A stretch of DNA of 53,102 bases from a virus (taxonomy: Duplodnaviria > Heunggongvirae > Uroviricota > Caudoviricetes), in IMG/VR virus record IMGVR_UViG_3300032330_001391, positions 1 to 53,102 of that record, one strand, 5' to 3'. Below are positions 20,914 to 38,674 of the stretch, piece by piece. Positions within the stretch are counted from its first letter, which is position 1. Every line of letters starts with the position of its first letter. The notes under the pieces were generated by a model. The model had not been told where the DNA came from. It made no database searches and worked only from the letters and a program-made list of their open reading frames with translations. Made by a program: the position numbers and the translations under genes.

Positions 20914-22188
20914 TTAATCTAAATAATCATCTACTAATTTTTTCATAACTCTTGCTACATTTGAATTAACATCATATCTATCTCGAAAATAAGATACGTC
21001 TTGATCTATATCATTGTTGTGGCTATATTGTTCCCCATCTTCAATTGTAAAATTTCTTACAAAATAATTAAATCCCCAATTGTTTTCCAAATCATCATGG
21101 ATTTTATTCCACTCTTCTTTAGAATATTTTTTAAAATCATCATAATATATGTCATTAGGATCTATTTCATCATAAGAATGAAATAAAGCCCATTCCCATA
21201 TTTCATAATCCGAATTATATAAATCTGGGTAGTCTATGAATTTGGCTAGATAGTTTATTAATTTACCTTCATTTTCATAACTTACATCTAATTTTAATAA
21301 AGAAGCAATACCAGGATCATTAACTCGCATTTCATTTACAGATCGATTAGAATAATTAATTATATATTTTTTAATATCATTTAAATTTAATATAATCATA
21401 ACCCAAACAAATGTTCCTCCACCTTCACTGTCTGTATAAAACTCTAATATTGGAATTTCATATTGTTTAAGTTTAGATATAAAAGATCTTAATCCATTTA
21501 TGTTAAAATCAGGATTCTCAGATTCAATAGCATCCATAATATTTTCATCACTATATCCAGCCATTATTTCAGGTTCATTATATATAGGAATAGTGAACAT
21601 TAATTCTTTATCTTCATCCAATATATTACCATAATATTCAACGTTATTTTTCTTATCAATGTATATTATTTCATCTTCATTTTCTTTTTTAAAAATAAGA
21701 GAAGAAGGTTCATTAACTCGCATTTCATTAATATCAGATTTTTGATCTTTGATCTTTTTTAAAAAATCTTCAACAGCATACTGATAAAGTTTTTGATCGT
21801 CCTTTACTTCTTTAAGTGCTTTTATATACTTGGGATCATTTATATTTATAATATTTTTATTATTAACTGCGTGCTTTAACATGAGTTCATGACCTAAACG
21901 ATTAGCATACCAGTTAAAATCTCTTTCATCATCAATAAGATCACCTAATGTACCTTTATAACCAATTTGTTTAGCGATATCAAATGCTAAAACATTTGCC
22001 ATTTCACCATCATAAAATTCACTCCAAAAATCCTCAGGATCGTCGGGTATTATATAATCATCCCAATATTCATCTAAGATATCTTTATAAAGATTATAAT
22101 TAGTCCAACGATATTTATTTGGTTCATTAACTCGCATTTCTGTTATAGGGATACCAGCCAATTTTTGCATGCGATAAAATTCACTCAT
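20914..22188 (-). CDS. Modular polyprotein: RMQKLAGI leader plus three EMRVN(E/D)P-delimited acidic domains
   Basis: Motif at 22121-22140, 21707-21729 and 21314-21336. Confidence 0.75.
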   Translation of the reverse strand: MSEFYRMQKLAGIPITEMRVNEPNKYRWTNYNLYKDILDEYWDDYIIPDDPEDFWSEFYDGEMANVLAFDIAKQIGYKGTLGDLIDDERDFNWYANRLGHELMLKHAVNNKNIININDPKYIKALKEVKDDQKLYQYAVEDFLKKIKDQKSDINEMRVNEPSSLIFKKENEDEIIYIDKKNNVEYYGNILDEDKELMFTIPIYNEPEIMAGYSDENIMDAIESENPDFNINGLRSFISKLKQYEIPILEFYTDSEGGGTFVWVMIILNLNDIKKYIINYSNRSVNEMRVNDPGIASLLKLDVSYENEGKLINYLAKFIDYPDLYNSDYEIWEWALFHSYDEIDPNDIYYDDFKKYSKEEWNKIHDDLENNWGFNYFVRNFTIEDGEQYSHNNDIDQDVSYFRDRYDVNSNVARVMKKLVDDYLD

Positions 22189-22210
22189 GAATGTTAATTT
22201 AATATAAATA

Positions 22211-22735
22211 TTATGAAAATAATACTTCTTTAATTGTTTGAATACGTTCTTTAGTAGTACCTTTAATTTCTACTAAACGTTTAGGTGGATATTCTTTCAA
22301 CATTTCTTTAATAGTAAAATCAATTTTATCACGATAATTACTGTCTATAGTACGTATACCATTATCTTCAATATTTACACCTTCAGGTGAAACATAAAAT
22401 ATAACATCATAATCATTACGTAGATGCATCATCAAATTAACAAATTTCTCTTTAACATTCCATTCAATTGAATTAGCACTTAACGTAAATGCGCATACAT
22501 CATATATAGTTCTATCTGTAATAATATTTTCTTTCATTAATTCAACAGAACGTTCAGCAGCAAATACTATTTGTCCTTTTAATGTTGAATCTGTATTTAA
22601 TGTTATGCCTTGATCTCGTAAATATTTACTACGTTCAGTAGCAAATTCATAATCTTCAAATTCAGGTAATTCCATTAATGCTTTAACTAAAGTAGTTTTA
22701 CCACACGATACTGTTCCACAAAAACCTATTTTCAT
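22211..22735 (-). CDS. P-loop NTPase, NadR/AAA_28 (nucleotide-kinase-like) type
   Basis: N-terminal GTVSCGKTT; ITDRTIYD; YDVIFY; EDNGIR motifs. Confidence 0.7.
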   Translation of the reverse strand: MKIGFCGTVSCGKTTLVKALMELPEFEDYEFATERSKYLRDQGITLNTDSTLKGQIVFAAERSVELMKENIITDRTIYDVCAFTLSANSIEWNVKEKFVNLMMHLRNDYDVIFYVSPEGVNIEDNGIRTIDSNYRDKIDFTIKEMLKEYPPKRLVEIKGTTKERIQTIKEVLFS

Positions 22736-22746
22736 ATTATTTTATT

Positions 22747-22992
22747 TTATGCTCTTGTTCCTGATTGTTTACCTGCTGCTGTTTTATGAAATGGTACTCC
22801 TTCACCATCTTTTTTAATATTTTCCCACTGTTCTTTAGTTTTTTTAATACCCCAAACATAATACTCTGCTTTACGTTTATCACCTTGTGGTATTAAGGCA
22901 GGACCATCATAGTTATGAGTTACAGCCTTACCTTCAATGATAGTGTAATATACAATAGTACCGTCTGCTTGTTTTAAATGTTTTGTCTGCAT
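22747..22992 (-). CDS. Small hypothetical protein
   Basis: 81-aa ORF (THNYDGPALIP..AEYYVWGI) preceded by a promoter. Confidence 0.55.
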   Translation of the reverse strand: MQTKHLKQADGTIVYYTIIEGKAVTHNYDGPALIPQGDKRKAEYYVWGIKKTKEQWENIKKDGEGVPFHKTAAGKQSGTRA

Positions 22993-23010
22993 ATTCTTTT
23001 TATTTTTTAT

Positions 23011-23042
23011 TAAATATACTAAAGAATTTTTAAAAAACCAAA
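23011..23042 (-). promoter_or_regulatory. Bacteroidota-type promoter
   Basis: TTTG-N20-TATATTTA. Confidence 0.65.
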
Positions 23043-23104
23043 TTTTTTAATTTAAAAATTTTCTATAAAATCTGGGTATTCTTCGTTAGGATCTTGATAC
23101 ATAA

Positions 23105-24388: not shown

Positions 24389-24393
24389 ATTAT

Positions 24394-24461: not shown

Positions 24462-24528
24462 AACTGTCATATTTTATTTATTAAAGCAACCGGCTATGAA
24501 TCGGTCTGTATGTTGTATTATTTTTATT

Positions 24529-24972
24529 TTAAAAACCTAATTGCTTACCATATTTTTTTAACATGCTATCATAGTATCTAATTTTTTTATTATAAAAATT
24601 CGCATCATCTAAAAGACCCATATCTTGACCATACTGGAGGTAAAATTGAGCTGCTAAAGCATTGCAATACAAATTAAAAGTTTCATTACTCATTACAAGA
24701 TTATCAAAATTACCTTTAAAACCAGCTCGTTTAGCAATATCAAATGCTAGATCATTTACTAAACTAAAATCATCAAGTTCTAACATAAATTCTTCAGGAG
24801 AATTAATCCCATATGCTTCAAATAAATCTTCTAACACAGATTCATATCCTTCATAATCTTGCCAATCTGGGGAAAGTGAGTCTATAGCGTTGAATTTTTG
24901 ATTGTTTTTAGACGCGCTGATAGCTTTATTAATCTCTTCGCGAATTAATTTTCTAAGTTCAAATTTTTTCAT
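24529..24972 (-). CDS. Hypothetical acidic protein with MKKFELRKLIREEI leader
   Basis: ORF; LAFDIAKRAGFKG matches domain 1 of ORF 20914-22188. Confidence 0.7.
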   Translation of the reverse strand: MKKFELRKLIREEINKAISASKNNQKFNAIDSLSPDWQDYEGYESVLEDLFEAYGINSPEEFMLELDDFSLVNDLAFDIAKRAGFKGNFDNLVMSNETFNLYCNALAAQFYLQYGQDMGLLDDANFYNKKIRYYDSMLKKYGKQLGF

Positions 24973-25030
24973 TGTTTAATTTTTGATTGTTTAATATAAA
25001 TATGTAAAAGAAGAGAAAAATACAATTAAT
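24966..25030. repeat. 65-bp perfect direct repeat, copy 1
   Basis: Identical to 25306-25370; contains the TATTTATA motif, the leader and the start codon. Confidence 0.95.
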
Positions 25031-25036
25031 TTTTCA

Positions 25037-25312: not shown

Positions 25313-25370
25313 TGTTTAATTTTTGATTGTTTAATATAAATATGTAAAAGAAGAGAAAAATACAATTAAT
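25306..25370. repeat. 65-bp perfect direct repeat, copy 2
   Basis: Identical to 24966-25030, offset 340 bp. Confidence 0.95.
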
Positions 25371-25372
25371 CT

Positions 25373-25714
25373 TTATATTATCTCTACTCCTAAGTTTTCA
25401 AGAGCTGTTTCTAAATCACGAACATAAGAATAATTTAAACGATCAATTTGTTTAGCATATGGTCCTTTTTCATAAAAAAGAAAATCATATGAATTTTCAA
25501 GATTTATACCATACGCTTTAAGGGCAAGTTGTAGCAAAGATAACCATTCATCTGTTCCTGTTTCTACCGTACCATCATCTATTACTTCTGGGTATTCTTT
25601 TTGAATTAGTGCTTTTATTTGTGTAGCTTTATCAGGTGACTTAACTTGCATTTCATTAATGCCAGCTAATTTTTGCATGCGTTTAAATTCCTCGCTTAAT
25701 ATTTGTTTTTTCAT
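25373..25714 (-). CDS. Hypothetical acidic protein with EEFKRMQKLAGINEMQVKSP leader
   Basis: ORF translation. Confidence 0.7.
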   Translation of the reverse strand: MKKQILSEEFKRMQKLAGINEMQVKSPDKATQIKALIQKEYPEVIDDGTVETGTDEWLSLLQLALKAYGINLENSYDFLFYEKGPYAKQIDRLNYSYVRDLETALENLGVEII

Positions 25715-25737
25715 GCTTGTTTTTTGGTATAAATATG

Positions 25738-26461: not shown

Positions 26462-27133
26462 TTATGGAAAAAGTGCTATTGCCTCTGATGATACTGGTAA
26501 ACCAAGAGAACTATGTGTTATTTTAATATATTCTTTATCGTAAACTGTTTTTATACCTTTAGTTATAGTAAAATACTTATCCCAATTTATTTTTTGTAAA
26601 TCAGCAAAATGTTTATATTGTTTACCTACCCTAACATCATATGCATATTTAGACTTATGAGATAATATTACTGAAGGGTGAGTAAGTTTCATTGTATAAC
26701 CATCGTAATTAACATGAACCACATCTTTTGGTTTTAAGTATTGACTATTAAACAAATCAATACTGTATTCTAATTTATCATCCTTATGTTTTTCTAACTG
26801 TATAAGTTCTTTATTAGTAAAATGTGGTATAGATTTAACTTTAGCGTATGCTAAATCAGGATTATCCTTTTCTGTTACCATATCATAATCTTCACTATCG
26901 GTAATTTTTACATTTAGTTGAAAAAAATCATGTAATATCCTTAAATCTTCTTCAATTAGTGTCTCTTTTAAACCTATGTCTATATCAGGAACACGTTCTG
27001 TAAAATTATATTCTATTATATCCATAATGTATAAAGATAAACTACCAGCTAATATAAATTTATCGTTAATATTAAGCATAGGTATAATAATATCCTCATA
27101 TTTTTGCGGAAGTTTGTTTATTTTGTATTCCAT
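26462..27133 (-). CDS. Nucleotidyltransferase-fold (pol-beta superfamily) protein
   Basis: LAGSLSL (hG[GS]) followed by PDIDI (DxD), and a later IDLF. Confidence 0.6.
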   Translation of the reverse strand: MEYKINKLPQKYEDIIIPMLNINDKFILAGSLSLYIMDIIEYNFTERVPDIDIGLKETLIEEDLRILHDFFQLNVKITDSEDYDMVTEKDNPDLAYAKVKSIPHFTNKELIQLEKHKDDKLEYSIDLFNSQYLKPKDVVHVNYDGYTMKLTHPSVILSHKSKYAYDVRVGKQYKHFADLQKINWDKYFTITKGIKTVYDKEYIKITHSSLGLPVSSEAIALFP

Positions 27134-28326
27134 TATCTGTTAATTCTAATTTTAGCGCCTGGTAAATCTTGGTTAATATCATATCCTGAGCAGTGTACCC
27201 ATAATATAGGTTTAATAGGATTTGTTTTAGGAGCAGGAGCACATCCATCAGTTAGATAAATTAGGTTAGCATATTTATCTTTATTTTCCATTAAGTATTG
27301 CATAACTGGTTCAAAATCAGTACCGCCTCTACCTTTTACTTCAATATTTTCCCTTTCACCTTTATAGTTGTAGACACGTTGTATAATAGCATCACATTCT
27401 ACTATATCAACATAAGTACCTGTTTTATATATGTGATAAATTTCATTAAAAAATTCAATTAAATCTTTTTGACTAACACTACCAGATGTATCTATAGCTA
27501 CTAATGTTTTTTTCTTTTGTTTAATTTTTAATGCGGGGCCGCTTCCAAATCTACGATTTGGTTTACGTCTTGTTTTTTTAGTGTATACTATACTAGACAT
27601 ACTATTAAAACGTCGTAAATAAGATGTCCAATCAATAACTGGTTCAATTACTTCAAATAAACTATCAATATAGTCTTGCATTTCTGTTGGTATTAATCCT
27701 CTGCCACGATTTTTTAGTTCATTAGCTACTTCTTTTAATTGATAATCTATTTGTTTAGCTATTAAATTACGTTCAGCTTCACCTAATCCTTCCATTGCCT
27801 TCCATAATTCATGTAAATCACCCATACCCTCACCATTACCCATCCCTTCCATCATTTTAGCTAAATCTCCATCAGGATTTTCATCCATTTCTTTTTGAAG
27901 AGTATCATAATAGTATTTAGTTCCTTGCTTTTCTAATAAATTTAATTCTTTAAATGGTGATTGATTAATTTCTAATCCTTCCCATTTATCTCCTTTCATA
28001 TCTTCATTAATATATTGATTAATTTCTAGATCAGCTGCTATATTATATAACTGTTTATCTGGGAATCTGTCAAAATTATTTAAATGAAAAAAAGCAATAT
28101 GTAATAATTCGTGTTTTAATACACCCATTTTTGTTTTTTCATCTAATAGTGTCCAATATTCAGGATTAACTACTAATTTAACATTAATATTTTCAGGAGT
28201 AACACACGCTGTTGATATGCTTGTGTTAAGTTCTTTATTAAGAGATATAAGAAATAAGCCATAAAACGGTTCTTTTAACATAAGCGTTTTAGAACATTTA
28301 GTAATCTCTTGGTAGATTTTTTCCAT
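27133..28326 (-). CDS. Zincin metallopeptidase plus vWA domain protein (DUF2201-like)
   Basis: LKHELLH (HExxH), NIAADLEIN, AIDTSGS (MIDAS), GRGGTDF and YLTDG motifs. Confidence 0.85.
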   Translation of the reverse strand: MEKIYQEITKCSKTLMLKEPFYGLFLISLNKELNTSISTACVTPENINVKLVVNPEYWTLLDEKTKMGVLKHELLHIAFFHLNNFDRFPDKQLYNIAADLEINQYINEDMKGDKWEGLEINQSPFKELNLLEKQGTKYYYDTLQKEMDENPDGDLAKMMEGMGNGEGMGDLHELWKAMEGLGEAERNLIAKQIDYQLKEVANELKNRGRGLIPTEMQDYIDSLFEVIEPVIDWTSYLRRFNSMSSIVYTKKTRRKPNRRFGSGPALKIKQKKKTLVAIDTSGSVSQKDLIEFFNEIYHIYKTGTYVDIVECDAIIQRVYNYKGERENIEVKGRGGTDFEPVMQYLMENKDKYANLIYLTDGCAPAPKTNPIKPILWVHCSGYDINQDLPGAKIRINR

Positions 28327-28336
28327 TTTTTTTGTT

Positions 28337-28368
28337 TAAATATACTAAATTAATCTAAGAAAGCCAAA
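28337..28368 (-). promoter_or_regulatory. Bacteroidota-type promoter
   Basis: TTTG-N20-TATATTTA. Confidence 0.6.
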
Positions 28369-29435
28369 TCAAAGGATTTAATTTGAAATTTATTACTTTT
28401 TAAAAGTTCATTAAGATTTTTTAATATAAATGTTTCAATAATTTGTTTATTTTCTGAGTGGTCTCTGTAATTTTTGTATAGGCCTTTAGCAAAATGTCTC
28501 CATTCACTTTTCCAAATAATGCCTCTACTTTTATAATAGCGGTCAATTACTTTAAAACTGTTCATAGAAGATGGAGTAATACCAGAACCATGATCAAAGA
28601 TATTTTGATACTTATTTAGTAATAAAGCTATAGTTAGAGCATTTGTTTCATCTAATTTAATATTAGACATCATTTCTATAGCTAATTTAACATTATCATT
28701 TTGACCACTACTAAGCATACCTTCTAATGTATTTAGATATTCATCGTCTATATCTAGACCATCCTCATTTAATTCTTCTAACAAGAATTCATCAAAAATT
28801 ATGTTAATATTAGGATTAGACTTAAGAAAATCTAATAATAATATAACATTTTCTATATTTTTTTCTCGATATAATGACTCATGATATAAATGTTCTATAT
28901 CAGCATTTTTTACATATTCTATTATATCTGAGCTAGATGATGTGTTTAATATTTCACTTGCTCCATCACGTGTATTTATAATTGAAAATGTTCTTTCAGG
29001 ATATGAAAGTCCCCAATCAGTTCGAGAATAATATTTTTCAAATAACCTACGAAGTAAATTAAAATTTTCATGATCATGATTTCTAATAATATCTTTCTTA
29101 TCCATATTCTTTAAAAATTTAAGAGTATTAGTAAGAAGAGTTTTATCAATAATAATTGAATCACAATATTCTTGACGAGATGTACGTTTTAATTTATTTT
29201 CAGTTATGTATTCTTTAAGTTTAAAACGTGGAATATTACTTAAAGTTCCAGTATATATTGTTTTACCAAAATTTAAATTTTTAGGTTGAGTTAATAATTT
29301 TTCAATTTGACTAATATAATCAAGTTTTTCTTGTTCATTTAAAATTACAGCTATTCCTGTATAATTTACTGTTCCGTAATTAGGGTATACATTAACAGAA
29401 TTAACGTATACTGACGTAGTATTCTTATATATCAT
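28350..29435 (-). CDS. Hypothetical protein between the MoxR and vWA genes
   Basis: Intact 361-aa ORF; no motif recognised. Confidence 0.6.
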   Translation of the reverse strand: MIYKNTTSVYVNSVNVYPNYGTVNYTGIAVILNEQEKLDYISQIEKLLTQPKNLNFGKTIYTGTLSNIPRFKLKEYITENKLKRTSRQEYCDSIIIDKTLLTNTLKFLKNMDKKDIIRNHDHENFNLLRRLFEKYYSRTDWGLSYPERTFSIINTRDGASEILNTSSSSDIIEYVKNADIEHLYHESLYREKNIENVILLLDFLKSNPNINIIFDEFLLEELNEDGLDIDDEYLNTLEGMLSSGQNDNVKLAIEMMSNIKLDETNALTIALLLNKYQNIFDHGSGITPSSMNSFKVIDRYYKSRGIIWKSEWRHFAKGLYKNYRDHSENKQIIETFILKNLNELLKSNKFQIKSFDLAFLD

Positions 29436-29450
29436 AAATTTAATTTTTTA

Positions 29451-30951: not shown

Positions 30952-31608
30952 TTAGTAGTATTGCCAGTAAATATCGTTAGGACCTAATTTTATTTTATAT
31001 AAGCGTGGGTTTGTAGGATCACCGTAAAGCAATTCGGGATCTAATGATATGTATGCTCTATTATCATCACCATCATCTAGCATTATATCATCACCACTGT
31101 TCCAAAAACCATATTGTTCTATATCAGCTCTATACCATCCGTTTAATACATTACTCCAAGATGGTTCATCATCTCTTTTCCATTCAGGTGTATTCCAAAG
31201 TGCGTCTACTAAGATTTTTTTAAATGATGGATTTAACACCATATAATTAGCTAGTTGATCATTATTTTTGAATTTAGGTATAGGTTTATTAACCCGCATT
31301 TCATTTACAGGTTGTTTATCTAGTATTACTCCATAATTCAATAGAAATTCTATAAATGAATCAACATTTCCTTCCCAATAATCTTTTTCTTTGATAAATT
31401 TATATGCTTCACGTTTTCTTAATGTTTTATTATCACGTGACGCCACTTTAAACAGATAGATAGCATCAGATGTATCTTCATCAAAATCATACCTAATATC
31501 ATCCCAGTCTTGATCTAACCATTTTTCAAATTCAGGATTAAGATAATATATTTTATCATCAGGAAAATTAATCCGCATCTCATTTAATACATTTATTAAT
31601 TTTATCAT
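30952..31608 (-). CDS. Two-module protein: MIKLINVLNE leader, EMRINFP and EMRVNKP domains
   Basis: Motifs at 31562-31584 and 31283-31305. Confidence 0.75.
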   Translation of the reverse strand: MIKLINVLNEMRINFPDDKIYYLNPEFEKWLDQDWDDIRYDFDEDTSDAIYLFKVASRDNKTLRKREAYKFIKEKDYWEGNVDSFIEFLLNYGVILDKQPVNEMRVNKPIPKFKNNDQLANYMVLNPSFKKILVDALWNTPEWKRDDEPSWSNVLNGWYRADIEQYGFWNSGDDIMLDDGDDNRAYISLDPELLYGDPTNPRLYKIKLGPNDIYWQYY

Positions 31609-31620: not shown

Positions 31621-32274
31621 TTAATAGTTATGACAGTATAAAGTGTAATCGCCTTCTCCTATGTAAGATATTTCAATTTTTTTATAGCAAACGTTAGTAG
31701 TTATAGTAGTACCGCTTTTATCTCCAAAAATTTCAAAAAGTATTTCATTTGGTTTAAAACGAGTATAATATGATAATATATATTTTTTAGCTTCTTTTCC
31801 GTCTTCACTTAATTGATCTTCATCATTGTAAAAACTCCATTCATTTATTAAAAAATCATCTAATGAATCATAACCAAAACTTTTATAAAGTTCTTGTAGT
31901 GATGAATTACTTGTTATATAAGCTAACAAATATGGTTTTTTATCTATAAAATAATCCAAAATCTGTTCTTTAGAAAGAGATATAGGTTTATTAACTCGCA
32001 TTTCACTTAAAGCTTCAACAGGTTCATACCAGTTTGTACAGTATTCATCAGCGGCATATGGTATCTTGTTAGTGCCAGCCCATTCAGCATAATATGTGTT
32101 ATTACATACTTGATCTTCTTTATTCCACCATTTACAATTAGCACAGCATGAACCTCCTTTAGGTACTTTCATTCCAGCTTTATGACTATCTGGTAGTTCC
32201 ATAGGGCCAGGACCACCATATTCTTCTTTTAATTGTTGTTGTATTAGGTAATTAGTTATGTTGAATTGTTTCAT
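31621..32274 (-). CDS. Two-module protein: Cys-cluster (HiPIP-like) module plus EMRVNKP domain
   Basis: CCANCKWW..C..YCTNW; motif at 31985-32007. Confidence 0.7.
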   Translation of the reverse strand: MKQFNITNYLIQQQLKEEYGGPGPMELPDSHKAGMKVPKGGSCCANCKWWNKEDQVCNNTYYAEWAGTNKIPYAADEYCTNWYEPVEALSEMRVNKPISLSKEQILDYFIDKKPYLLAYITSNSSLQELYKSFGYDSLDDFLINEWSFYNDEDQLSEDGKEAKKYILSYYTRFKPNEILFEIFGDKSGTTITTNVCYKKIEISYIGEGDYTLYCHNY

Positions 32275-32278
32275 ATTT

Positions 32279-35200
32279 TTATGATTCTGTTAAATCGTTC
32301 ATGTTATATATTCTGTTATAATCTTCTTGTTTTTCAGGCATACCTGATGAAAGATATACATTGTTTCCTAACATAGAATCACCAGATATGTTATCTTTTA
32401 TGACGTTACCTTCTGCATCCATTATAACCCAAGATTCATAGTACATATTATCCTTATTAGATTTAGGAAGTAAAACATACTTTTTACCTTTATCATTAAT
32501 AATAAACGGTACAGCGAATAATAAAGTACTATATTTTGTATTTTGATTGAATTTTTCAACTAAATTAATTATTGTTTTTCGTTCAGAAGTTGATAATTTA
32601 CGCCATTGTTCTTCATCTATAGGGACTGGGTTTACTTCTTGTGTAGGCATTGCGTTTCTATTTTCTAAATCTTCACTACTTATATTAGTTCCTTCTTCAT
32701 AAATCCATGGTTCAAATAATTTAATATATAATTCATATAATTGTTTAAGTTTTGGGTCACTAATATAATCAATAGCTTCTGGTGGGAGGAAATCAAGTTC
32801 TTTAGCCATTTTATTAACGTATGTTTTAGCAGCGTCTTCACCAAAATATTTTTTAATATATTCAAAAGATAAACTATCTTTTTCAAAAATATCTAAATAT
32901 TGTTGTTTTTCTTCATCACTTAAATATTCAATAAAAGGTAAAGGTACAATGGTAGTTGATGTTTTACCTTGTTTATAGTCATCTAAAGCTCTAGTAAATC
33001 TAAATTTAGCATAACTTCGTGATAAAGCTTTACTATCTTTCAAATCGTTATATGTAGGTTTATATCCAGTACCAGTTCGTAAAGCTAAATTTTTTAATTC
33101 TGGATCTAGGATTTTAAACATAGCACTATTAAATGCATTTGGTTGATCTGCTCTATTAGCGATATATATTCTTTTTTGATTTCTGTTTAAATCTTTAAAC
33201 ATATTGAAATCTAAAATTTTATCTCTTACTAAAGCTTGATCAGTTTCTTCTTCAGATGGAGGGACATATTTAAATACATCTTTAAGATTTTTTATTTTTT
33301 CCCAAGCTTGTTTTCCACTTTCACCTCCATTTTTTATCATAAATTGTCCCACTTCATCCCAAGACATTCCTTTATCATTTCCAGTAGCTTCATGATTTGA
33401 ACCCCATTGATTTACAGTATCTGTCACTCCAAATTTACCATTTTGGAAAGCATGTATTACAAAAAAGTGATACCAATTTATAAAATTTTCTCTATTTGAT
33501 GGATTACCTTTTATATCCGCATTTTGAGTAGAATCTGCTACAAAATAAAAACTTCTAAATGCTCCACCTCGACCAAAACGATATGTGTAATATTGATTTG
33601 ATGCTTCTTCTTTTCTACCTATACAAAATCCGTAAGAATAAATTTTATTATCTTCTCCTTTATATTTAAAAGCATAATTTAATTTAATACAACCACCGTA
33701 ATCACTTCCTTCATAAATTTTAAGCCCATTATTGTTATATACTACTGGTACTCCTTTTATATCAATAAGTTCAGCATCTTGAATTGTACTAAAATCTTTT
33801 GATGATTTTTCAGCTTTTCCACCATAAGCGTCTAAAACAGTTTCTAAATCTTTCCAAGTATAATTTAAAATATCTTGTGGGTTTAAAATTTTATTAGTTT
33901 TAGGATCAGGTTCAGTAAATTTCTTAGGTACTATTATTCCTCCAGCTTCTCCTTTAAGTCCTGCTTGTATTTTTTTAGGGAGATTTTGTTTAATTTGATC
34001 AAATCTATTTAACTTTTCTTTAATATCATCTTTTGACAGAGTATTTTTCATTTCTTTTTGAAATTTTTCTGTCATTTGATTAATAATCTTTTCAGAGTAC
34101 TCATTTAATTGAGTTCTTTTTGATTCTCTTAAATCTTTAAATTCTTTTGTTTTATATACTTTATCTATTTGTATTTCTCTATCATCAAATACTATTCTAA
34201 CATTACCACCATAATGTGTATTTCCATCTATTCCAGCTCTTAATAAGAATAAAGAGGTATCTTTAGGAGGATTTTTAGATTTTTTTCCATAAAAATTTTC
34301 TATAGTATGATAAACTTTACTACCTATCATAGATGTATTTATATTAACATCCACATTATCTTTTTGGGCTTGTTTATTAATTTTATCAACTTGATATTGA
34401 GGAATAGGACCATCCCAATTTAAATAATCAGGAGTTTTATTAGGAAATAATGTAACTTTATATATATAATGCATTGATTCCTGTTCTACTTCTAGATCTT
34501 TAATAATTTCTATAAATTTACGGTAGTTATCTAATACTTCTTCTTTACTTTCAAAATCAGGTTCTTCTTCAAGAATAGAAATCATGTCTTCTGCATATTC
34601 TATATATTCTTTAGCTGTTTTTAGTCCTTGCGGTAATCCAAAAAATACTTCATTTTCATATTCTAAACCTAATTCTTCAGCAGTTTTACCTTGAAATAAT
34701 GTTTTAAACCTATGGGGTGTATTTATAGATAAAGCATATCCTTTAACCATTTCTGGATTTTTTCCGAAATATAAACCCCATCCAATTACTTGTATTCCTG
34801 TTCCCCCACCCATTCCTTCACTGTGAAATTGTCTAAAATAATTTGGTGAACCATGCCATGCCTCTTCATTTTCATTTAATGGTTTAGTTTTATCTATTTT
34901 AGAAAATGTTTTTTTAATTTCTTTATTAAATGATTCAAGAAATATTTCAGCAAAAGTTTGTTTATGCATATTTTCTTTTTTTATCGGTTTTAGTTTTTTT
35001 ATTAAATTTTCTCGTGCCCAAAATCTTTGACCAGTTTTATCATCATCTATTAAATACCAAGGAATACCATCTTTTTCAGTGTAATATCTGTTATAATCTT
35101 TAGATAAGGTTAATGTTTCATTACCTAATGATACTTTTTCTCCTGGGTAGAATTTTTTAGGCTCATTAACTCGCATTTCAACTAATGGAGCGTATTTTCT

Positions 35201-36115
35201 AATTAATGACATAGCTACCGACCTAGGTTCCCAAGAATCAGGATTGTTTCTATCTATATGAGGAGTATCCATATATGGGGGAGGGTTAGTTATAGCACTT
35301 GTCGATACTACTTTTAAGTTATTATCTTCTTGCTCTGCTTTTTTAGACCAACGTGCTACATTCCATCCAGTAAATGCAGCTATTATTTTTTCTTTAGATA
35401 AATCTATTAAATAATTTTCTGGTTCACGATATGTTAATTTTGGGATTTGTTTATAGTCATCATATGAGTGAATTTCTCCGTATGCCTTTTCATATTTGAA
35501 CGGTTCATTAACTCGCATTTCCTTAATAACATCTGTTTTTTTAAATTCTCCTATCAAATATGATTCAAAATCATTATCATCAATAACATCAGCAAGATAA
35601 AATGAGTAGCAATCATTATTATTTATAACTTCATCTACAGAATATTTTACACTTTTTGTTGTATATATTTCATCATCATAATCTATAATATCTTTTTTAA
35701 CTTGGGCAAGAGCACTTCTAAATAAACAATCTATATCTACATTTTCTTCATAGAATTTAGTTATTAATTTGTATAGATAGTTTTTTAAGTTAGGATTAAT
35801 TTCAAGATATTCTTTAATATTTTCTTCATCTATCAGATCTTCATTATTATATGATAAAAGTATTTCTTCACCATCTTTAAATATCTCATGATTATTAAAG
35901 ATCATTTGATCTATTATAAAAGATTTGAGTACATCATATTGTTCAATTAAATAATCTAAATCAATACCATCAGATTCAAATGTATCTATTACGCGTAAAA
36001 CTACATAATCTTTAATTTTAGATATTATTTCAGGAGAAATACCATAAGTAAGAGATTTGGGTTTATTAACCCTCATCTCATTTAAAAATTTATCAGTCAG
36101 TTTAAATTCTATCAT
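32279..36115 (-). CDS. 1278-aa polyvalent polyprotein with three EMRVN modules, an ART-like domain and a large C-terminal module
   Basis: Motifs at 36060, 35502 and 35160; AWHGSP..F..F..GWGLYF and GIDG..IVFDD; further PLNE and QLNE boundaries. Confidence 0.8.
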   Translation of the reverse strand: MIEFKLTDKFLNEMRVNKPKSLTYGISPEIISKIKDYVVLRVIDTFESDGIDLDYLIEQYDVLKSFIIDQMIFNNHEIFKDGEEILLSYNNEDLIDEENIKEYLEINPNLKNYLYKLITKFYEENVDIDCLFRSALAQVKKDIIDYDDEIYTTKSVKYSVDEVINNNDCYSFYLADVIDDNDFESYLIGEFKKTDVIKEMRVNEPFKYEKAYGEIHSYDDYKQIPKLTYREPENYLIDLSKEKIIAAFTGWNVARWSKKAEQEDNNLKVVSTSAITNPPPYMDTPHIDRNNPDSWEPRSVAMSLIRKYAPLVEMRVNEPKKFYPGEKVSLGNETLTLSKDYNRYYTEKDGIPWYLIDDDKTGQRFWARENLIKKLKPIKKENMHKQTFAEIFLESFNKEIKKTFSKIDKTKPLNENEEAWHGSPNYFRQFHSEGMGGGTGIQVIGWGLYFGKNPEMVKGYALSINTPHRFKTLFQGKTAEELGLEYENEVFFGLPQGLKTAKEYIEYAEDMISILEEEPDFESKEEVLDNYRKFIEIIKDLEVEQESMHYIYKVTLFPNKTPDYLNWDGPIPQYQVDKINKQAQKDNVDVNINTSMIGSKVYHTIENFYGKKSKNPPKDTSLFLLRAGIDGNTHYGGNVRIVFDDREIQIDKVYKTKEFKDLRESKRTQLNEYSEKIINQMTEKFQKEMKNTLSKDDIKEKLNRFDQIKQNLPKKIQAGLKGEAGGIIVPKKFTEPDPKTNKILNPQDILNYTWKDLETVLDAYGGKAEKSSKDFSTIQDAELIDIKGVPVVYNNNGLKIYEGSDYGGCIKLNYAFKYKGEDNKIYSYGFCIGRKEEASNQYYTYRFGRGGAFRSFYFVADSTQNADIKGNPSNRENFINWYHFFVIHAFQNGKFGVTDTVNQWGSNHEATGNDKGMSWDEVGQFMIKNGGESGKQAWEKIKNLKDVFKYVPPSEEETDQALVRDKILDFNMFKDLNRNQKRIYIANRADQPNAFNSAMFKILDPELKNLALRTGTGYKPTYNDLKDSKALSRSYAKFRFTRALDDYKQGKTSTTIVPLPFIEYLSDEEKQQYLDIFEKDSLSFEYIKKYFGEDAAKTYVNKMAKELDFLPPEAIDYISDPKLKQLYELYIKLFEPWIYEEGTNISSEDLENRNAMPTQEVNPVPIDEEQWRKLSTSERKTIINLVEKFNQNTKYSTLLFAVPFIINDKGKKYVLLPKSNKDNMYYESWVIMDAEGNVIKDNISGDSMLGNNVYLSSGMPEKQEDYNRIYNMNDLTES

Positions 36116-36479
36116 AATACTTTAAATCTTCTATATGTTTTTCTTTACTAATATTTTTCTCTCTTAGTTTCCATTGATAGATTTCATCAGCGGGAGATAA
36201 TTTTAGTACATGTCCGTTATAAATATATTCAATATATTTAGCTTGCGGATTTATAAACAAATCAAATAAAAGATTTTCGTATCTATATTTTTTTATTAAA
36301 CGGTGTTGCAATTTATCAACACCAAATAATTCATATATGTGAATACGTTTTGTTGATATAATGTCTATATCTTTAGGTTCACGATATGGGATAATTCCTT
36401 GTAATATTAAAGAAACACTTCCACCAATGTATATATCTGGATGTGTTTGTTGGAATTTAGTTAAAACATCTTTAATCAT
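36102..36479 (-). CDS. Minimal nucleotidyltransferase-fold protein
   Basis: IGGSVSL, PKDIDII and FDLF motifs. Confidence 0.6.
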   Translation of the reverse strand: MIKDVLTKFQQTHPDIYIGGSVSLILQGIIPYREPKDIDIISTKRIHIYELFGVDKLQHRLIKKYRYENLLFDLFINPQAKYIEYIYNGHVLKLSPADEIYQWKLREKNISKEKHIEDLKYYDRI

Positions 36480-37208
36480 TTAAAATACTTCCGGATTTTC
36501 TTTATAGTCTTTATAGCTTACAGTTAAGAACCCTTTATTATTAAACTCACTAAGAGTTCTTGAATAATCTTCATCCCATAGTGGTTCCTTATAACTTATA
36601 CCATCATTGTGTCTTTCTACTAAATATTCTTCTCCAACATAATATCCATAAGCTATAGTAAATTTATTTGTACCTAATTGATTATATAAAGTCACAAATG
36701 GGAGTAATACATCTTCTATATCATCTTTTATTTCTTTTAAAGACATCAATTCTTCTTTATCTGGTTCTACTATTATATGATCACCTTCTATGTATGGTAA
36801 TTCTTCTTGTGATTGCCAATAATCAGTACTATTATTAGCGTCTAAAATATATTTTAATATGCCTTGATTATCATTGTTATTATAATAGTCAACTAATGTT
36901 AATGCATCATTTTTAGTTAAAGTATCTTCAAATATGTCACTTATTGGTCCTTTCATAAATCTATATAGATCTTTAAAACCATAATACCCACCAGCTAAAT
37001 AATTAATATCTTTTTTTAATTCATTAACTACATTTTGTAATGTGTCATTATATTCACTAAATCTTCCACCCATTTCAGAATCAGAATATATAAATTCTAC
37101 TATTATATCTGCGTCAACATCTGTATAAGATTCACTAGTAGCTTTTATATACAATACGCCAGGTTCATTAACCCGCATTTCATTTAATATATCTATTAAT
37201 TTAATCAT
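36480..37208 (-). CDS. Acidic protein with MIKLIDILNEMRVNEP leader
   Basis: Motif at 37162-37184. Confidence 0.75.
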   Translation of the reverse strand: MIKLIDILNEMRVNEPGVLYIKATSESYTDVDADIIVEFIYSDSEMGGRFSEYNDTLQNVVNELKKDINYLAGGYYGFKDLYRFMKGPISDIFEDTLTKNDALTLVDYYNNNDNQGILKYILDANNSTDYWQSQEELPYIEGDHIIVEPDKEELMSLKEIKDDIEDVLLPFVTLYNQLGTNKFTIAYGYYVGEEYLVERHNDGISYKEPLWDEDYSRTLSEFNNKGFLTVSYKDYKENPEVF

Positions 37209-37210
37209 AA

Positions 37211-38674
37211 TTAAATTCTATTTCCGTCCTCATCAAAGTTTTTAACATCTGGATAATACTTTCCAGAGCTATCAAACCATCCAACATATCTATCTTCGTC
37301 TTGACCAGCATATGGGCTATATACTGTTATTTCTTGATTTTTCCTATCAATATTTACGGCAGTATAATAAGCATCGGGTGGTGCACCTAGGGCTGTACTG
37401 TAAGCAAATATGTCTTTTGTTACATGCGTTCCAGGTGATTTTTTAAGTAGATGACGTATTGCTAATAACGCTTTACTATCTTCATCTAAATCTTCATAAT
37501 CTTTTAATCTGTATGTTTCACGCGCAGGTTCATATAAATCAAAACCATAATCTGATTCTCCAAAATACTCTACTAATACCCATAATGCTTCTTCATCTTT
37601 ATTTGTTAATTGTCCTGGAATGTTAATCCGCATTTCTTTTACAGGAATACCCGCTAGTTTTTGCATGCGTTTCATTTCATCCAAACCTTCTAAACCAGTA
37701 TCATCTTTTTTAAGATCAGAGTTTATATCACGCATAGTATAAAACGCCCATCTTTTTTGCTCATTTGTTAATTCATCATTGATAGCATTTTCAACAAATG
37801 AATAAAATTCATCATAATCTGCTATTTTATACAATTCAGCTAAAAATAAATCTCTAACACGAGGATCATCAAATTCAGACTCTACCCATATTTTAGTTAT
37901 ATTATTGTATATATATTGCCCAAATCTTATATCATCTAATTCATTTTTATATGTATCAACTTGATTAGTGACTTTTTTAGCTTCTTCTCCACCTGATTCT
38001 TTACGTTTAGGAAAAGATACATTTACTCTTCCTACTCCTTCTAATTGATCACCATAACGATCAATAACTTGCAATAATTTAGCTATTTGATTTTCATCAT
38101 GATATCCACCAAATATATCATCCATAACTTGAGCATAATCATCAGTTAATTCAGGATTAATAAGATCTAAATAATCTTTGTAATTATAATGACTGAATGC
38201 TCCTCGTACTGCTCCACCTTGTGTTATACTATTTATGATACGTCTTTTTTCAGGAGAAACCTTATTATGGTAAGCTTGTTTAGATATAATCTCATATAAT
38301 CCTTTAGCTATTTCATGCATTAAAATAGGAAATACTAATCCTCGAGCGTGAATTACAATATCATGTTTTTTTAGTAATTCTGGGTCAGTTTGGTATGGTT
38401 TTCCTAATTTGGTATCTTTTCCTAATTTAGCATCTATACCTATCCCAGCATAGTCTATTACAGGATATACTTCTTTAGCTATTTGAACAGCTAAAGCTTC
38501 TAATTCATCCTTATAATCTGCTTCTGCTGCTTCTAATTTATTTACTAAACTAAACGCGTTAGCCTGCATTTGTCCAGGTGATCTTCCTTTTAAAACTTTA
38601 CTAAGAGTATCTTTAGATTTTCCTTTAAGTGTACCTAAAGTTTTAGGTGAGAATATATTTTTGTATTCAGCCAT
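37211..38674 (-). CDS. Hypothetical protein with a C-terminal RMQKLAGI-EMRINIP appended module
   Basis: LDEMKRMQKLAGIPVKEMRINIP at about 37617-37680. Confidence 0.7.
   Translation of the reverse strand: MAEYKNIFSPKTLGTLKGKSKDTLSKVLKGRSPGQMQANAFSLVNKLEAAEADYKDELEALAVQIAKEVYPVIDYAGIGIDAKLGKDTKLGKPYQTDPELLKKHDIVIHARGLVFPILMHEIAKGLYEIISKQAYHNKVSPEKRRIINSITQGGAVRGAFSHYNYKDYLDLINPELTDDYAQVMDDIFGGYHDENQIAKLLQVIDRYGDQLEGVGRVNVSFPKRKESGGEEAKKVTNQVDTYKNELDDIRFGQYIYNNITKIWVESEFDDPRVRDLFLAELYKIADYDEFYSFVENAINDELTNEQKRWAFYTMRDINSDLKKDDTGLEGLDEMKRMQKLAGIPVKEMRINIPGQLTNKDEEALWVLVEYFGESDYGFDLYEPARETYRLKDYEDLDEDSKALLAIRHLLKKSPGTHVTKDIFAYSTALGAPPDAYYTAVNIDRKNQEITVYSPYAGQDEDRYVGWFDSSGKYYPDVKNFDEDGNRI

What the first reader, a model, noticed from the sequence alone, without database searches (positions are those of the whole stretch)
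20914..37700. EMRVNxP-delimited polyprotein cassettes: a candidate capsid-loaded, protease-released effector arsenal
Seen: the peptide (I/L/V)-x-E-M-R-(V/I)-N-x-P, whose DNA core is typically ggttcattaactcgcatttc on the plus strand, occurs 11 times in six ORFs (21314, 21707, 22121, 31283, 31562, 31985, 35160, 35502, 36060, 37162, 37617). It also heads the three LRR genes and, in degenerate form (INEMQVKSP), ORF 25373. Each copy is followed by a different, usually very acidic, aromatic-rich domain of roughly 50-230 aa. All 15 copies have I/L/V-x-E immediately before the Met. Established: T4 gp21 cleaves after Glu in (I/L)-x-E, T4 internal proteins are loaded by a cleavable targeting peptide and ejected into the host, and IPI blocks GmrSD. 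Inference: the gp21-like protease (13273) cuts these polyproteins into cargo proteins that all begin MRVNxP, a possible shared retention/ejection tag. Modules could be added or swapped at the repeated motif, giving an expandable set of injected anti-defence or host-takeover factors. The acidic modules could be DNA mimics. Alternative: the Met is an internal translation start in an A-rich Bacteroidota context.
Basis: partly seen in the sequence, partly recalled or inferred. Interest (0 to 1): 0.92.

Follow-up and report, generated by a model that had tools for sequence, protein, structure and literature searches.

The report
Protease-jointed phage cargo polyproteins
A T4-like phage of the Flavobacterium-phage group joins small unrelated protein modules with a repeated nine-residue joint that matches its head protease's cutting motif and is the exact point where modules are swapped between phages. 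It therefore probably loads, cuts and delivers a changeable set of proteins, but neither cutting nor packaging has been measured.

Summary
[ILV]-x-E-M-(R/K/Q)-(V/I)-(N/K)-x-P occurs 15 times in the window and once more at 142 kb of the 160.9-kb phage genome, always in frame.

What was shown:
- It is a joint between independently folding modules.
- Each module of ORF 20914 occurs elsewhere as a stand-alone protein behind a different leader.
- In a 95-99% identical contig (L233), one module is missing and another is replaced, with breakpoints inside the 17-20-bp joint.
- Relatives use their own joint variant genome-wide (IKVNKP, IEVGIP) with synonymous codon variation, so the peptide itself is selected. 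P1' is Ile there, which argues against an internal start.

- The phage has an S77 (gp21-type) protease.
- A 10-residue leader has the T4 capsid-targeting layout.
- A second leader (RMQKLAGI) copies the invariant C-terminal tail of the gp22-like scaffold in at least 63 relatives.
- Leader genes sit behind the same TATTTATA motif as the portal and terminase genes.

Not shown: cleavage, packaging or ejection. The anti-defence and DNA-mimic roles have no support. One module weakly resembles ART-PolyVal.

Best reading (about 0.6): capsid-addressed, protease-cut cargo polyproteins, a new variant of the T4 internal-protein system. Earlier unchecked notes of this scan describe similar jointed polyproteins in other phage genomes.

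The parts
13273..13890 (-). Prohead maturation protease, T4 gp21 type (peptidase S77), the presumed cutting enzyme
   Evidence: PHROG 207 at E=1.6e-58. Pfam Peptidase_S77 scores 100.7 bits against a cut-off of 27. PDB 5JBL (T4 gp21) matches at E=3.4e-16. The His of GELDHP and the Ser of VSSRG align with the T4 catalytic residues, and an N-terminal L-I-E is present as in T4.
12002..13093 (-). gp22-like acidic scaffold protein. Its last 12 residues (12005-12040) are FERMQKLAGIKK, the peptide that one cargo leader copies
   Evidence: It lies between the protease and the capsid gene. The tail is seen. QKLAGI is invariant in 63 scaffold tails, and two near-invariant Glu residues are each preceded by [IVLM]-x.
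10185..11966 (-). Major capsid protein (gp23 family), with an invariant V-x-E59 at the place of the T4 gp23 maturation cut
   Evidence: Pfam Gp23 scores 253.9 bits. E59 is invariant in 50 relatives. It aligns to T4 L-T-E65|A.
20914..22188 (-). Polyprotein: RMQKLAGI-type leader followed by three modules (aa 18-155, 156-286 and 287-424)
   Evidence: In the AF2 model the three joints lie in low-confidence coil between three folded blocks. A TATTTATA motif lies at 22203-22210.
22120..22146 (-). Joint I-T-E|MRVNEP (leader to module 1)
   Evidence: It is the left crossover point against L233.
21706..21732 (-). Joint I-N-E|MRVNEP (module 1 to module 2)
   Evidence: It is the right crossover point against L233.
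21313..21339 (-). Joint V-N-E|MRVNDP (module 2 to module 3)
   Evidence: It is the left boundary of the module replaced in L233.
25373..25714 (-). Small cargo protein: RMQKLAGI-type leader, variant joint I-N-E|MQVKSP (25634-25660) and one module
   Evidence: The immuto phage has a homologue that starts with the same leader followed by I-T-E|S. TATTTATA lies at 25728-25735.
30952..31608 (-). Polyprotein: 10-residue MIKL-type leader followed by two modules
   Evidence: Module 2 occurs stand-alone in P0064 and behind a different first module in L251 and L252.
31561..31587 (-). Joint L-N-E|MRINFP
31282..31308 (-). Joint V-N-E|MRVNKP, in front of the PIPKFKNND module
   Evidence: The orthologous module is preceded by IRINKP in L251, IEVGIP in L252 and IKVNKP in P0064.
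31621..32274 (-). Conserved 87-residue Cys-rich protein with one module added in frame after the joint
   Evidence: The G006 homologue covers only aa 1-87. The added module is a stand-alone leader gene in L251 and L252.
31984..32010 (-). Joint L-S-E|MRVNKP
32279..36115 (-). 1278-residue polyprotein: short leader, two small modules, then a 965-residue core with a weak ART-PolyVal-like region (aa about 407-671)
   Evidence: It has 30 homologues of 710-2218 aa, most of which carry variable numbers of jointed modules. For ART-PolyVal, all 17 homologues scanned match below threshold; the window's own score is 16.2 bits against a cut-off of 31.2. The atlas lead scores 0.91.
36059..36085 (-). Joint L-N-E|MRVNKP
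35501..35527 (-). Joint I-K-E|MRVNEP
35159..35185 (-). Joint L-V-E|MRVNEP
36480..37208 (-). MIKL-type leader, joint L-N-E|MRVNEP (37161-37187) and one 232-residue acidic module
37211..38674 (-). Conserved 347-residue protein ending in an RMQKLAGI anchor, then joint V-K-E|MRINIP (37616-37642) and an added module
   Evidence: Homologues end at or near the anchor (L119, L251, L252) or carry inserted modules (P0025, P0027, P0030). The added module is a stand-alone gene with another leader in G010.
38972..39673 (-). First gene of the closely packed block 39673 to 30687; starts with the leader MIKITDLINE
   Evidence: TATTTATA lies at 39677-39684.
45281..45781 (-). Protein with an anchor-type leader (FQRMLKLAGI) but no MRVN extension
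   Evidence: TATTTATA lies at 45801-45808.
24529..24972 (-). Stand-alone paralogue of module 1 of ORF 20914, behind a different (MKK-type) leader
   Evidence: tblastn gives 36% identity over 80 aa at E=3e-11. TATTTATA lies at 24995-25002.
50888..51397 (-). LRR-like protein (20-residue repeats) with MIKL leader and joint L-K-E|MRVNPP (51350-51376)
51399..51905 (-). LRR-like paralogue with MIKL leader and joint L-N-E|MRVNMK (51858-51884; no Pro)
51907..52353 (-). LRR-like paralogue with MIKL leader and joint L-K-E|MKVNTQ (52306-52332; no Pro)

Best explanation
These are capsid-addressed cargo proteins and polyproteins of a T4-like phage. A short address peptide recruits the precursor into the assembling prohead. 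The address is either a 10-residue N-terminal leader (M-I-K-L-x-x-I-L-x-E) or a helix (F-x-R-M-Q-K-L-A-G-I) that copies the C-terminal tail of the scaffold protein; the second kind can sit at the N-terminus, at the C-terminus or internally. The gp21-type protease then cuts after Glu in every [ILV]-x-E|M-R-V-N-x-P joint. This removes the address and separates the modules, which stay in the head and probably leave with the DNA.

The joint has a second, evolutionary role. Its conserved coding sequence is the in-frame crossover point at which modules are gained, lost and exchanged.

Shown here: the joint is real, lies between autonomous modules, is selected as a peptide, differs between genomes but is uniform within each, and is the recombination breakpoint. 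Inferred only: recruitment, cleavage by this protease, retention in the head and ejection. Unknown: what the modules do.
For: 1. Enzyme and rule. The S77 protease has the catalytic His and Ser. T4 gp21 cuts after L/I-x-E (PMC9026906). All 16 joints have [ILV]-x-E. The capsid protein has an invariant V-x-E59 that aligns with the T4 gp23 cut.

2. Leaders. MIKLIDILNE is 10 residues long, with hydrophobic residues at positions 4, 7 and 8 and Glu at 10. These are the positions found to matter in the 10-residue T4 IPIII CTS. Its codons vary synonymously between copies, and it heads many unrelated genes in relatives.

3. Scaffold mimicry. The scaffold ends in RMQKLAGIKK. QKLAGI is invariant in 63 scaffold tails, with a near-invariant [IV]-x-E about 8 residues before the RMQKLAGI core. 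The same peptide followed by I-x-E heads small proteins in about a quarter of 120 viral contigs.

4. Modularity. Each module of ORF 20914 has stand-alone homologues behind other leaders or with a C-terminal anchor, and many of them lack the joint. In the AF2 model the three joints lie in pLDDT<50 coil between folded blocks.

5. Polyprotein habit. Homologues of the ORF 32279 core carry 0 to about 11 jointed modules on either side. Modules are also inserted at existing [IL]-x-E sites of the ORF 37211 family.

6. Peptide-level selection. L251 uses IK(V/I)NKP and L252 uses IEVG(I/L)P in several genes each, with synonymous codon variation. One orthologous module carries the local variant in each genome.

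7. Swapping. In L233 (95-99% identical) the crossovers fall inside the shared joint core.

8. Timing. TATTTATA precedes the portal, terminase and tail genes. It also precedes 8 of 17 leader genes but only 2 of 31 other genes in 20-53 kb (Fisher p=0.002). The interspersed enzyme genes carry a different, host-type motif.
Against: There are no proteomic or biochemical data for this phage or any relative; nothing was found for the cultured relative immuto.

[ILV]-x-E is short and common in this AT-rich proteome, so the match to the gp21 rule is weak by itself.

T4 gp21 needs almost no determinants beyond L/I-x-E. Cleavage alone therefore does not explain why the P' half (MRVNxP) is conserved and genome-specific.

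The closest long relative, G006 (terminase 89% identical), has leaders but no extended joint, so the extension is not needed for the leader system.

The cassette genes lie outside the head-gene cluster, among early-type genes.

An MKK-type leader-like N-terminus also occurs on the terminase, so N-terminal helices of this style are not specific to cargo.

The late-promoter reading of TATTTATA rests on analogy with T4 and on its position only.
Confidence: 0.6

Rival explanations
1. The joint is an uncut flexible linker. The products act as intact multi-domain proteins, and the motif is kept because it works as a standard linker and in-frame recombination point, or as a docking peptide for a common partner. 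Nothing is cut.
For: The joints lie in predicted coil. The breakpoints of module gain and loss fall in the joint. The conserved, genome-specific P' half is not explained by the specificity of a gp21-type protease.
Against: [ILV]-x-E is invariant in front of every copy and every variant. The same [ILV]-x-E closes the N-terminal leaders in relatives that lack the extension. A linker alone would not need a Glu at a fixed position or leaders with the T4 CTS layout. Modules are inserted inside a conserved protein at existing [IL]-x-E sites, which is easier to tolerate if those sites are cut.
Confidence: 0.17
2. The joints are cut, but by another protease or outside the capsid. Candidates are the DUF2201-type putative metallopeptidase at 27133-28326 or a host enzyme. 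In this reading the modules are cytoplasmic early or late proteins, not virion cargo.
For: A DUF2201_N/DUF2201 gene lies within the cassette region in L251, and its homologue in the window is ORF 27133. The polyvalent proteins of other phages are proposed to be processed by embedded metallopeptidases (PMC5512222). The cassette genes lie away from the head-gene cluster.
Against: The presence of the DUF2201 gene does not track the joint. The locus of L252 has joints but no DUF2201 gene, while L222 has the gene but no joint. Cutting after Glu with a hydrophobic residue at P3 is the known rule of S77 proteases. One leader copies the scaffold tail, which ties these proteins to head assembly.
Confidence: 0.1
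3. The element acts at the DNA or RNA level, as a recombination site for a dedicated enzyme or as a regulatory signal. The peptide is then incidental.
For: In the window, 10 of 13 Arg codons in the joint are CGA or CGG, which make up 13% of Arg codons genome-wide (p=3e-7). Val is GTT in 12 of 12 copies, against 37% genome-wide (p=7e-6). The crossovers lie in the core.
Against: In L251 and L252 the joint codons vary freely at synonymous sites while the peptide is kept. The window copies also vary at the Glu, Arg, Asn and Pro codons. No recombinase or endonuclease gene accompanies the cassettes. All copies are in frame and on the coding strand. The codon bias is explained by recent spread of copies through recombination.
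Confidence: 0.06
4. The Met of the joint is an internal translation start, so each module is made separately.
For: Every copy in the window has ATG at this position, in an A-rich context.
Against: Relatives have Ile (ATT, ATC or ATA) or Val at the same position in dozens of joints. The residues upstream of it are conserved as a peptide. The N-terminal leaders upstream of the Met show synonymous and conservative changes, so they are translated.
Confidence: 0.03

Closest known systems
Phage T4 internal proteins IPI, IPII, IPIII and Alt, with the capsid targeting sequence (CTS) and gp21 processing
   Same: A homologous protease is present (S77). There is a 10-residue N-terminal leader ending in hydrophobic-x-Glu, with hydrophobic residues at positions 4 and 7. 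One conserved leader sits on otherwise unrelated, fast-changing proteins. One large member may carry an ADP-ribosyltransferase, as Alt does.
   Different: There is no sequence similarity to the T4 CTS or internal proteins. Here several modules are chained in one ORF with internal joints. The joint has a conserved, genome-specific P' half. A second leader copies the scaffold tail and also works from the C-terminus or internally. Packaging, cutting and ejection are proven for T4 and unmeasured here.
Polyvalent proteins of phages and conjugative elements (Iyer et al. 2017, PMC5512222)
   Same: These are long, mosaic, rapidly shuffled multi-module phage proteins that are predicted to be packaged and injected. 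The ART-PolyVal family gives the only Pfam signal here, and that signal is below threshold.
   Different: Polyvalent proteins are defined by sets of known enzymatic domains, with proposed autoprocessing by embedded metallopeptidases. Here most modules have no known family, no embedded peptidase was found, and the modules are delimited by one repeated joint that matches the head protease motif.
Head-protein proteolysis in giant phages (phiKZ, 201phi2-1, SPN3US)
   Same: Diverged gp21 homologues cut many head and ejection proteins after Glu within a short motif, and propeptides act in targeting.
   Different: In those phages each protein is a separate gene with a few sites, and the motif is S/A/G-x-E (from my own knowledge, not checked here). 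A repeated, extended joint that doubles as a cassette boundary has not been described there; full-text searches for the joint peptides found nothing.
Herpesvirus scaffold protein: a C-terminal tail binds the major capsid protein and is cut off at the maturation site by assemblin (from my own knowledge)
   Same: The scaffold here ends in an invariant short peptide with a near-invariant protease-type site just upstream. The protease belongs to the fold family shared with assemblin.
   Different: Binding of the tail to the capsid protein is not shown here. Use of the same tail as an address on cargo proteins is not known for herpesviruses.
Encapsulin cargo-loading peptides (from my own knowledge)
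   Same: A short terminal peptide addresses diverse cargo to the inside of an HK97-fold shell and can be moved between proteins.
   Different: The sequences are unrelated. Encapsulins have no protease step and no polyproteins. This is an analogy only.

Membership tests
Peptidase S77 (T4 gp21-type prohead protease), ORF 13273-13890 | Profile match above the curated threshold | tested here: met
   Pfam PF03420 scores 100.7 bits against a cut-off of 27. PHROG 207 matches at E=1.6e-58. PDB 5JBL matches at E=3.4e-16.
Peptidase S77 (T4 gp21-type prohead protease), ORF 13273-13890 | Catalytic His and Ser conserved | tested here: met
   GELDHP and VSSRGMGS align with T4 GELNHP and VSSRGLGS.
Peptidase S77 (T4 gp21-type prohead protease), ORF 13273-13890 | Gene placed in the portal, protease, scaffold, major capsid order | tested here: met
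   The order is portal 16502-18397, protease 13273-13890, scaffold 12002-13093, capsid 10185-11966, the same as in T4.
T4-type capsid-targeted internal proteins (CTS system) | Short N-terminal leader ending in L/I-x-E, shared by otherwise unrelated proteins | tested here: met
   Five genes in the window start M-I-K-L-x-x-[IV]-L-x-E, and others carry close variants. The same leader is seen in relatives.
T4-type capsid-targeted internal proteins (CTS system) | Sequence homology to the T4 CTS or to IPI-III/Alt | tested here: not met
   No Pfam or PHROG family was found. tblastn of ORF 37211 and ORF 32279 against 50,697 phage records gave no T4-like hit. The likeness is in layout only.
T4-type capsid-targeted internal proteins (CTS system) | Leader removed by the prohead protease | not testable with these tools
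   Needs N-terminal mapping or an in vitro cleavage assay.
T4-type capsid-targeted internal proteins (CTS system) | Protein present inside the mature head and ejected with the DNA | not testable with these tools
   Needs virion proteomics and an ejection assay. No proteomic study of a relative was found.
Polyvalent proteins (Iyer et al. 2017) | Contains signature domains such as ART-PolyVal | tested here: inconclusive
   PF18760 scores 16.2 bits (E=0.019) against a cut-off of 31.2 for the window protein. All 17 homologues match weakly, the best at E=1e-5. The atlas feature score is 0.91. The AF2 model is poor (pLDDT 67) and Foldseek finds no significant match.
Polyvalent proteins (Iyer et al. 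2017) | Embedded processing peptidase (MPTase) or several known enzymatic domains in one chain | tested here: not met
   No Pfam family at E<=0.01 in any motif-bearing protein scanned, apart from one sub-threshold Curlin-repeat hit in ORF 30952.
T4 gp22-type scaffold, ORF 12002-13093 | Acidic helical protein encoded between the protease and the major capsid gene | tested here: met
   Sequence and position are shown, and the immuto phage has the same arrangement. No profile match exists, so membership by homology is inconclusive.
Leucine-rich repeat proteins (ORFs 50888-52353) | Profile match or LRR fold | tested here: inconclusive
   No Pfam hit. Regular 20-residue repeats of the L-x-L-x-x-T-P-I-x-S-L-P type are visible.

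The most novel reading that the evidence does not exclude
The joint may carry two codes. Its P side ([ILV]-x-E) would be the protease site. Its P' side would be a separate tag that stays on every mature module and is read by a co-evolving partner in the head, for instance for retention, ordering or ejection; this side is MRVNxP here and IKVNKP or IEVGIP in relatives, uniform within a genome and different between genomes. The same coding sequence would also serve as an in-frame splice point. Together with the interchangeable address peptides, one of which mimics the scaffold tail, this would make a cassette-exchange system for injected proteins, comparable in logic to an integron but working inside reading frames.
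Probability: 0.25. Interest if true: 0.85.

Novelty: new variant of a known kind. Interest (0 to 1): 0.68.

Why it matters
If these precursors are loaded and cut as proposed, the T4 principle of a leader plus a protease site has been extended in aquatic Bacteroidota-type T4-like phages into a polyprotein system. One gene would then yield several virion-delivered proteins, and modules could be exchanged in frame at a fixed joint.

This would matter in three ways:
- It gives a sequence rule for predicting packaged, injected proteins in uncultured phages. At least 600 related contigs exist.
- It points to a large pool of unknown small acidic proteins that are candidates for host takeover or counter-defence.
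- It offers portable address and cut tags, including one that copies the scaffold tail, for studying how cargo is recruited into HK97-fold capsids.

Even without cleavage, the exact-joint module swapping between 95-99% identical genomes is a clear case of in-frame domain shuffling caught in the act.

Tried and rejected
- Complex prediction of the capsid protein (alignment A1) with the scaffold tail (alignment A2) gave no verdict (score 0.00). It counts neither for nor against binding.
- An exact DNA scan of IMG/VR for the joint core gave 11 unrelated chance hits.
- A scan of the metagenome contigs gave 17 chance hits, none in a related phage.
- Megablast of the region against phage records gave no match.
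- The search for related loci with ORF 20914 and ORF 37211 found no relatives.
- tblastn of ORF 37211 found nothing, and tblastn of ORF 32279 found one weak hit.
- Pfam and PHROGs gave no family for the motif proteins.
- The word-based homologue search with ORF 30952 gave one useful hit, P0064.
- The first alignment for folding ORF 20914 (A3) put module-1 homologues under module 3 and was dropped in favour of A5.
- Fold searches with the ORF 20914 model (BFVD and AFDB clusters) and with the ART-like model (PDB) gave no match at E<=0.001.
- The proteases of L251 and L252 could not be compared with their joint variants because those records are not held.
- The internal-start reading was considered and rejected because relatives have Ile or Val at that position.
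- The DUF2201 peptidase was considered and rejected as the processing enzyme because its presence does not track the joint.
- A resemblance between the scaffold N-terminus and the MIKL leader was looked at and not pursued as too weak.

Full report
**What the window is.** The window is the first 53 kb of a 160,908-bp virus record with 30.6% G+C, rated complete by CheckV. Every gene between 4 and 53 kb lies on the minus strand. The head module is of T4 type:
- large terminase at 18441-20015 and portal at 16502-18397;
- prohead protease at 13273-13890, with Pfam Peptidase_S77 at 100.7 bits against a cut-off of 27 and T4 gp21 structure 5JBL at E=3.4e-16;
- an acidic gp22-like scaffold at 12002-13093;
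- a gp23-family capsid protein at 10185-11966 (Pfam 253.9 bits).

The protease keeps the catalytic His and Ser of gp21 and has an L-I-E near its N-terminus, as T4 does. The nearest cultured relative is Flavobacterium phage vB_FspM_immuto, with 56% portal identity. At least 600 IMG/VR contigs encode a terminase 72-89% identical to this one.

**The observation.** The 20-nt core matches 8 times at up to 3 mismatches, against 0.01 expected. As a peptide, E-M-[RKQ]-[VI]-[NK] occurs at 15 sites in the window, all in frame and all preceded by [ILV]-x. A sixteenth copy lies at 142139 in the tail-gene region. That gene has no counterpart in the related contig G001.

The modules that follow the joints are 92-232 aa, plus one of 965 aa. 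Apart from the three LRR-like ones, they are acidic and somewhat rich in aromatic residues.

**Two address peptides.** The N-terminal copies follow one of two leaders.
- The first leader is ten residues, M-I-K-L-[IL]-[DN]-[IV]-L-[NK]-E, and heads five genes. Differences between copies are synonymous or conservative, so it is translated. The same leader heads many unrelated genes in relatives. Its layout is ten residues, hydrophobic at positions 4, 7 and 8, with Glu at 10. This matches the T4 IPIII capsid targeting sequence, where positions 4 and 7 matter for targeting and 8 and 10 for processing (PMC9026906).
- The second leader is [FY]-x-R-M-Q-K-L-A-G-I. The scaffold protein itself ends in FERMQKLAGIKK, and the immuto scaffold ends in RWQKLAGIIK.

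About three quarters of the hits are the last residues of a 280-500-residue protein lying just upstream of the capsid gene. About a quarter lie within 16 residues of the start of a small protein and are followed by I-x-E. In 63 distinct scaffold tails QKLAGI is invariant, and two Glu residues, each preceded by [IVLM]-x, are nearly invariant; one lies about 8 residues before the RMQKLAGI core.

The second leader is therefore a copy of the scaffold's C-terminal tail. The anchor also occurs at the C-terminus of other proteins (P0053, P0057 and the ORF 37211 family) and internally in ORF 37211. What the tail binds is not known.

**The joint lies between autonomous modules.** An exhaustive profile search with ORF 20914 found 30 other proteins at E<=0.001. 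Each of its three modules has stand-alone homologues of 108-170 aa. These sit behind different leaders: the anchor type ending in I-T-E, an MKK type, an NFDLK type or the MIKL type. Some instead carry a C-terminal anchor. Many of these homologues lack the MRVN/IKVN motif, so the motif is not part of any module fold.

Module 1 has a paralogue in the window, ORF 24529, behind another leader. In an AlphaFold2 model of ORF 20914 (mean pLDDT 71, module 3 above 90), residues 12-29, 146-162 and 281-291 are below pLDDT 50. These coil stretches contain the three joints (E17|M18, E155|M156, E286|M287) and separate the folded blocks. Module 1 also has short low-confidence stretches between residues 106 and 135.

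**Comparison with relatives.**
- G006 is syntenic (terminase 89% identical) and has leaders but no extended joint. It lacks ORFs 20914, 30952 and the block 32279-38951. Its homologue of ORF 31621 covers only residues 1-87, the part before the joint.
- The module added to ORF 31621 is a stand-alone leader gene in L251 and L252.
- The module added to ORF 37211 is a stand-alone gene in G010, behind a different leader and the joint variant IKVKAP.
- Module 2 of ORF 30952 is stand-alone in P0064 and follows a different first module in L251 and L252.

**Polyproteins are common in this group.** The 965-residue core of ORF 32279 has 30 homologues of 710-2218 aa. Most carry a variable number of extra modules in front of or behind the core, each bounded by [LIVM]-x-E-[IMV]-x-[VI]-x-x-P. 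One 2142-residue protein has about eleven such joints.

Three homologues are fused to a copy of the ORF 37211-type protein. In them, one to four modules are inserted between conserved segments of that protein. One insertion site reads V-I-L-K-E|A in the uninterrupted form, which is already a protease-type site.

**The joint is selected as a peptide and is genome-specific.** In L251 the joint is E-I-K-[VI]-N-K-P in four genes. In L252 it is E-I-E-V-G-[IL]-P in four genes. In both, codons vary at synonymous positions. The same orthologous module (PIPKFKNND...) is preceded by MRVNKP in the window, IRINKP in L251, IEVGIP in L252 and IKVNKP in P0064.

The P' half of the joint therefore changes in concert within each genome. 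Cleavage specificity of the T4 kind does not predict this. The cause could be co-evolution with a partner, or homogenisation by recombination.

P1' is Ile or Val in relatives, which argues against an internal start codon.

**The joint is the recombination breakpoint.** Contig L233 (3.5 kb) is 95-99% identical to window 18.4-22.6 kb. There, the leader of ORF 20914 is joined directly to module 2. The switch from sequence upstream of joint 1 to sequence downstream of joint 2 falls inside the shared 17-nt core. Module 3 is replaced by an unrelated module: identity ends within joint 3 and resumes at the stop codon.

This also explains the codon bias of the window copies. CGA or CGG is used in 10 of 13 Arg positions against 13% genome-wide (p=3e-7). 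GTT is used in 12 of 12 Val positions against 37% (p=7e-6). The copies have spread recently by recombination.

**Expression context.** TATTTATA resembles the T4 late promoter TATAAATA (from my own knowledge). It lies 3-22 nt upstream of the portal, terminase and ORF 15611 genes, and likewise within 45 nt upstream of several tail-region genes. It also precedes leader genes 20914, 24529, 25037, 25373, 38972, 45281, 48233 and 50888. ORF 38972 opens the closely packed block that runs down to 30687.

In 20-53 kb, 8 of 17 leader genes carry the motif against 2 of 31 others (p=0.002). The interspersed enzyme genes 22747, 23105, 27133, 29451 and 40353 instead carry TTTGG...TAnnTTTA, of the Bacteroidota -33/-7 type. 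Reading these as late and early promoters is an inference.

**Function of the modules.** No Pfam or PHROG family is found, and there are no significant fold matches. The one lead is residues 407-671 of ORF 32279. All 17 homologues scanned match Pfam ART-PolyVal below threshold (window 16.2 bits against a cut-off of 31.2; best E=1e-5). A language-model search points to the same family. If real, this parallels the packaged ADP-ribosyltransferase Alt of T4. DNA mimicry and anti-defence roles remain guesses.

**Verdict.** The best reading is a T4-type address-and-cut system enlarged into cassette polyproteins (about 0.6). The remaining probability is spread over four rivals: an uncut linker or recombination joint, cutting by another protease, a nucleic-acid-level element, and internal starts.

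Full-text searches for the joint and anchor peptides, and for polyproteins cut by prohead proteases, found no prior description. The closest published concepts are the T4 CTS and internal proteins and polyvalent proteins. Unchecked earlier notes of this scan describe similar protease-jointed, joint-swapped polyproteins in other phage genomes, and another note describes the leaders of this genome.

Noticed in passing
window 20000-53000 and the whole genome: Two upstream motif classes separate the genes. TATTTATA precedes virion and leader genes (31 ORFs genome-wide). TTTGG...TAnnTTT(A/G) precedes about 30 small or enzymatic genes, mostly between 70 and 130 kb. They look like late (T4-type) and early (host Bacteroidota sigma) promoters.
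   Followed up: partly
window 37211-38674, against P0025/P0027/P0030 and L251/L252: In the ORF 37211 family a conserved segment of about 35 residues (...FP-[IM]-L-[MV]-H-E-[IL]-x-K-G-L-Y-E...) lies before the RRIIN segment in the window but after it in the homologues. This is a segment permutation within a conserved protein.
   Followed up: no
L251:8483-10001 and G010:12616-13131: There is a third interchangeable address peptide, N-F-[DN]-L-K-[KQ]-Y-L-S-x-x-x-L-L-x-E. It ends the ORF 37211 homologue of L251 and starts the next gene. It also heads stand-alone module genes in G010, G007 and P0042.
   Followed up: partly
genome 141741-142190 (outside the window): A 149-residue gene with an anchor leader and the joint L-A-E|MRVKLHEP sits in the tail and baseplate gene region. 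It has no counterpart in the syntenic contig G001.
   Followed up: partly
window 50888-52353: Three tandem paralogues (55-65% identical) have 20-residue LRR-like repeats and MIKL leaders. G006 has one related copy fused behind another domain.
   Followed up: partly
window 24973-25032 and 25313-25372: The 60 nt upstream of ORFs 24529 and 25037 are identical except for one base and include the TATTTATA motif. This looks like a duplicated promoter and start cassette.
   Followed up: partly
window 36102-36479: This is the only gene in the cassette block without a leader or joint. It matches PHROG 33731 (unknown function, E=9e-8), and its G-G-S...D-I-D-I pattern suggests a small nucleotidyltransferase. 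It is conserved next to cargo modules in G010.
   Followed up: no
window 26462-30632: ORF 27133 is homologous to a DUF2201_N/DUF2201 (putative metallopeptidase/VWA-like) gene in L251. ORF 29451 and its neighbours are also conserved there. The block sits between the cassettes, behind early-type motifs. It is present in L251 and L222 but absent from G006 and from the L252 locus.
   Followed up: partly
window 32279-36115, aa 407-671: The top Foldseek PDB row for the model of this region is a cyanophage A4 pre-ejectosome chain (9k3a_B, E=0.26, TM 0.36). The match is not significant and the model is poor.
   Followed up: no
window 18441-20015: The terminase large subunit starts with a K-Q-I-I-R-E-E helix. 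It resembles the MKK-type leaders of small genes 20086, 24529, 25037 and 38682, so that leader-like class is not specific to cargo.
   Followed up: no
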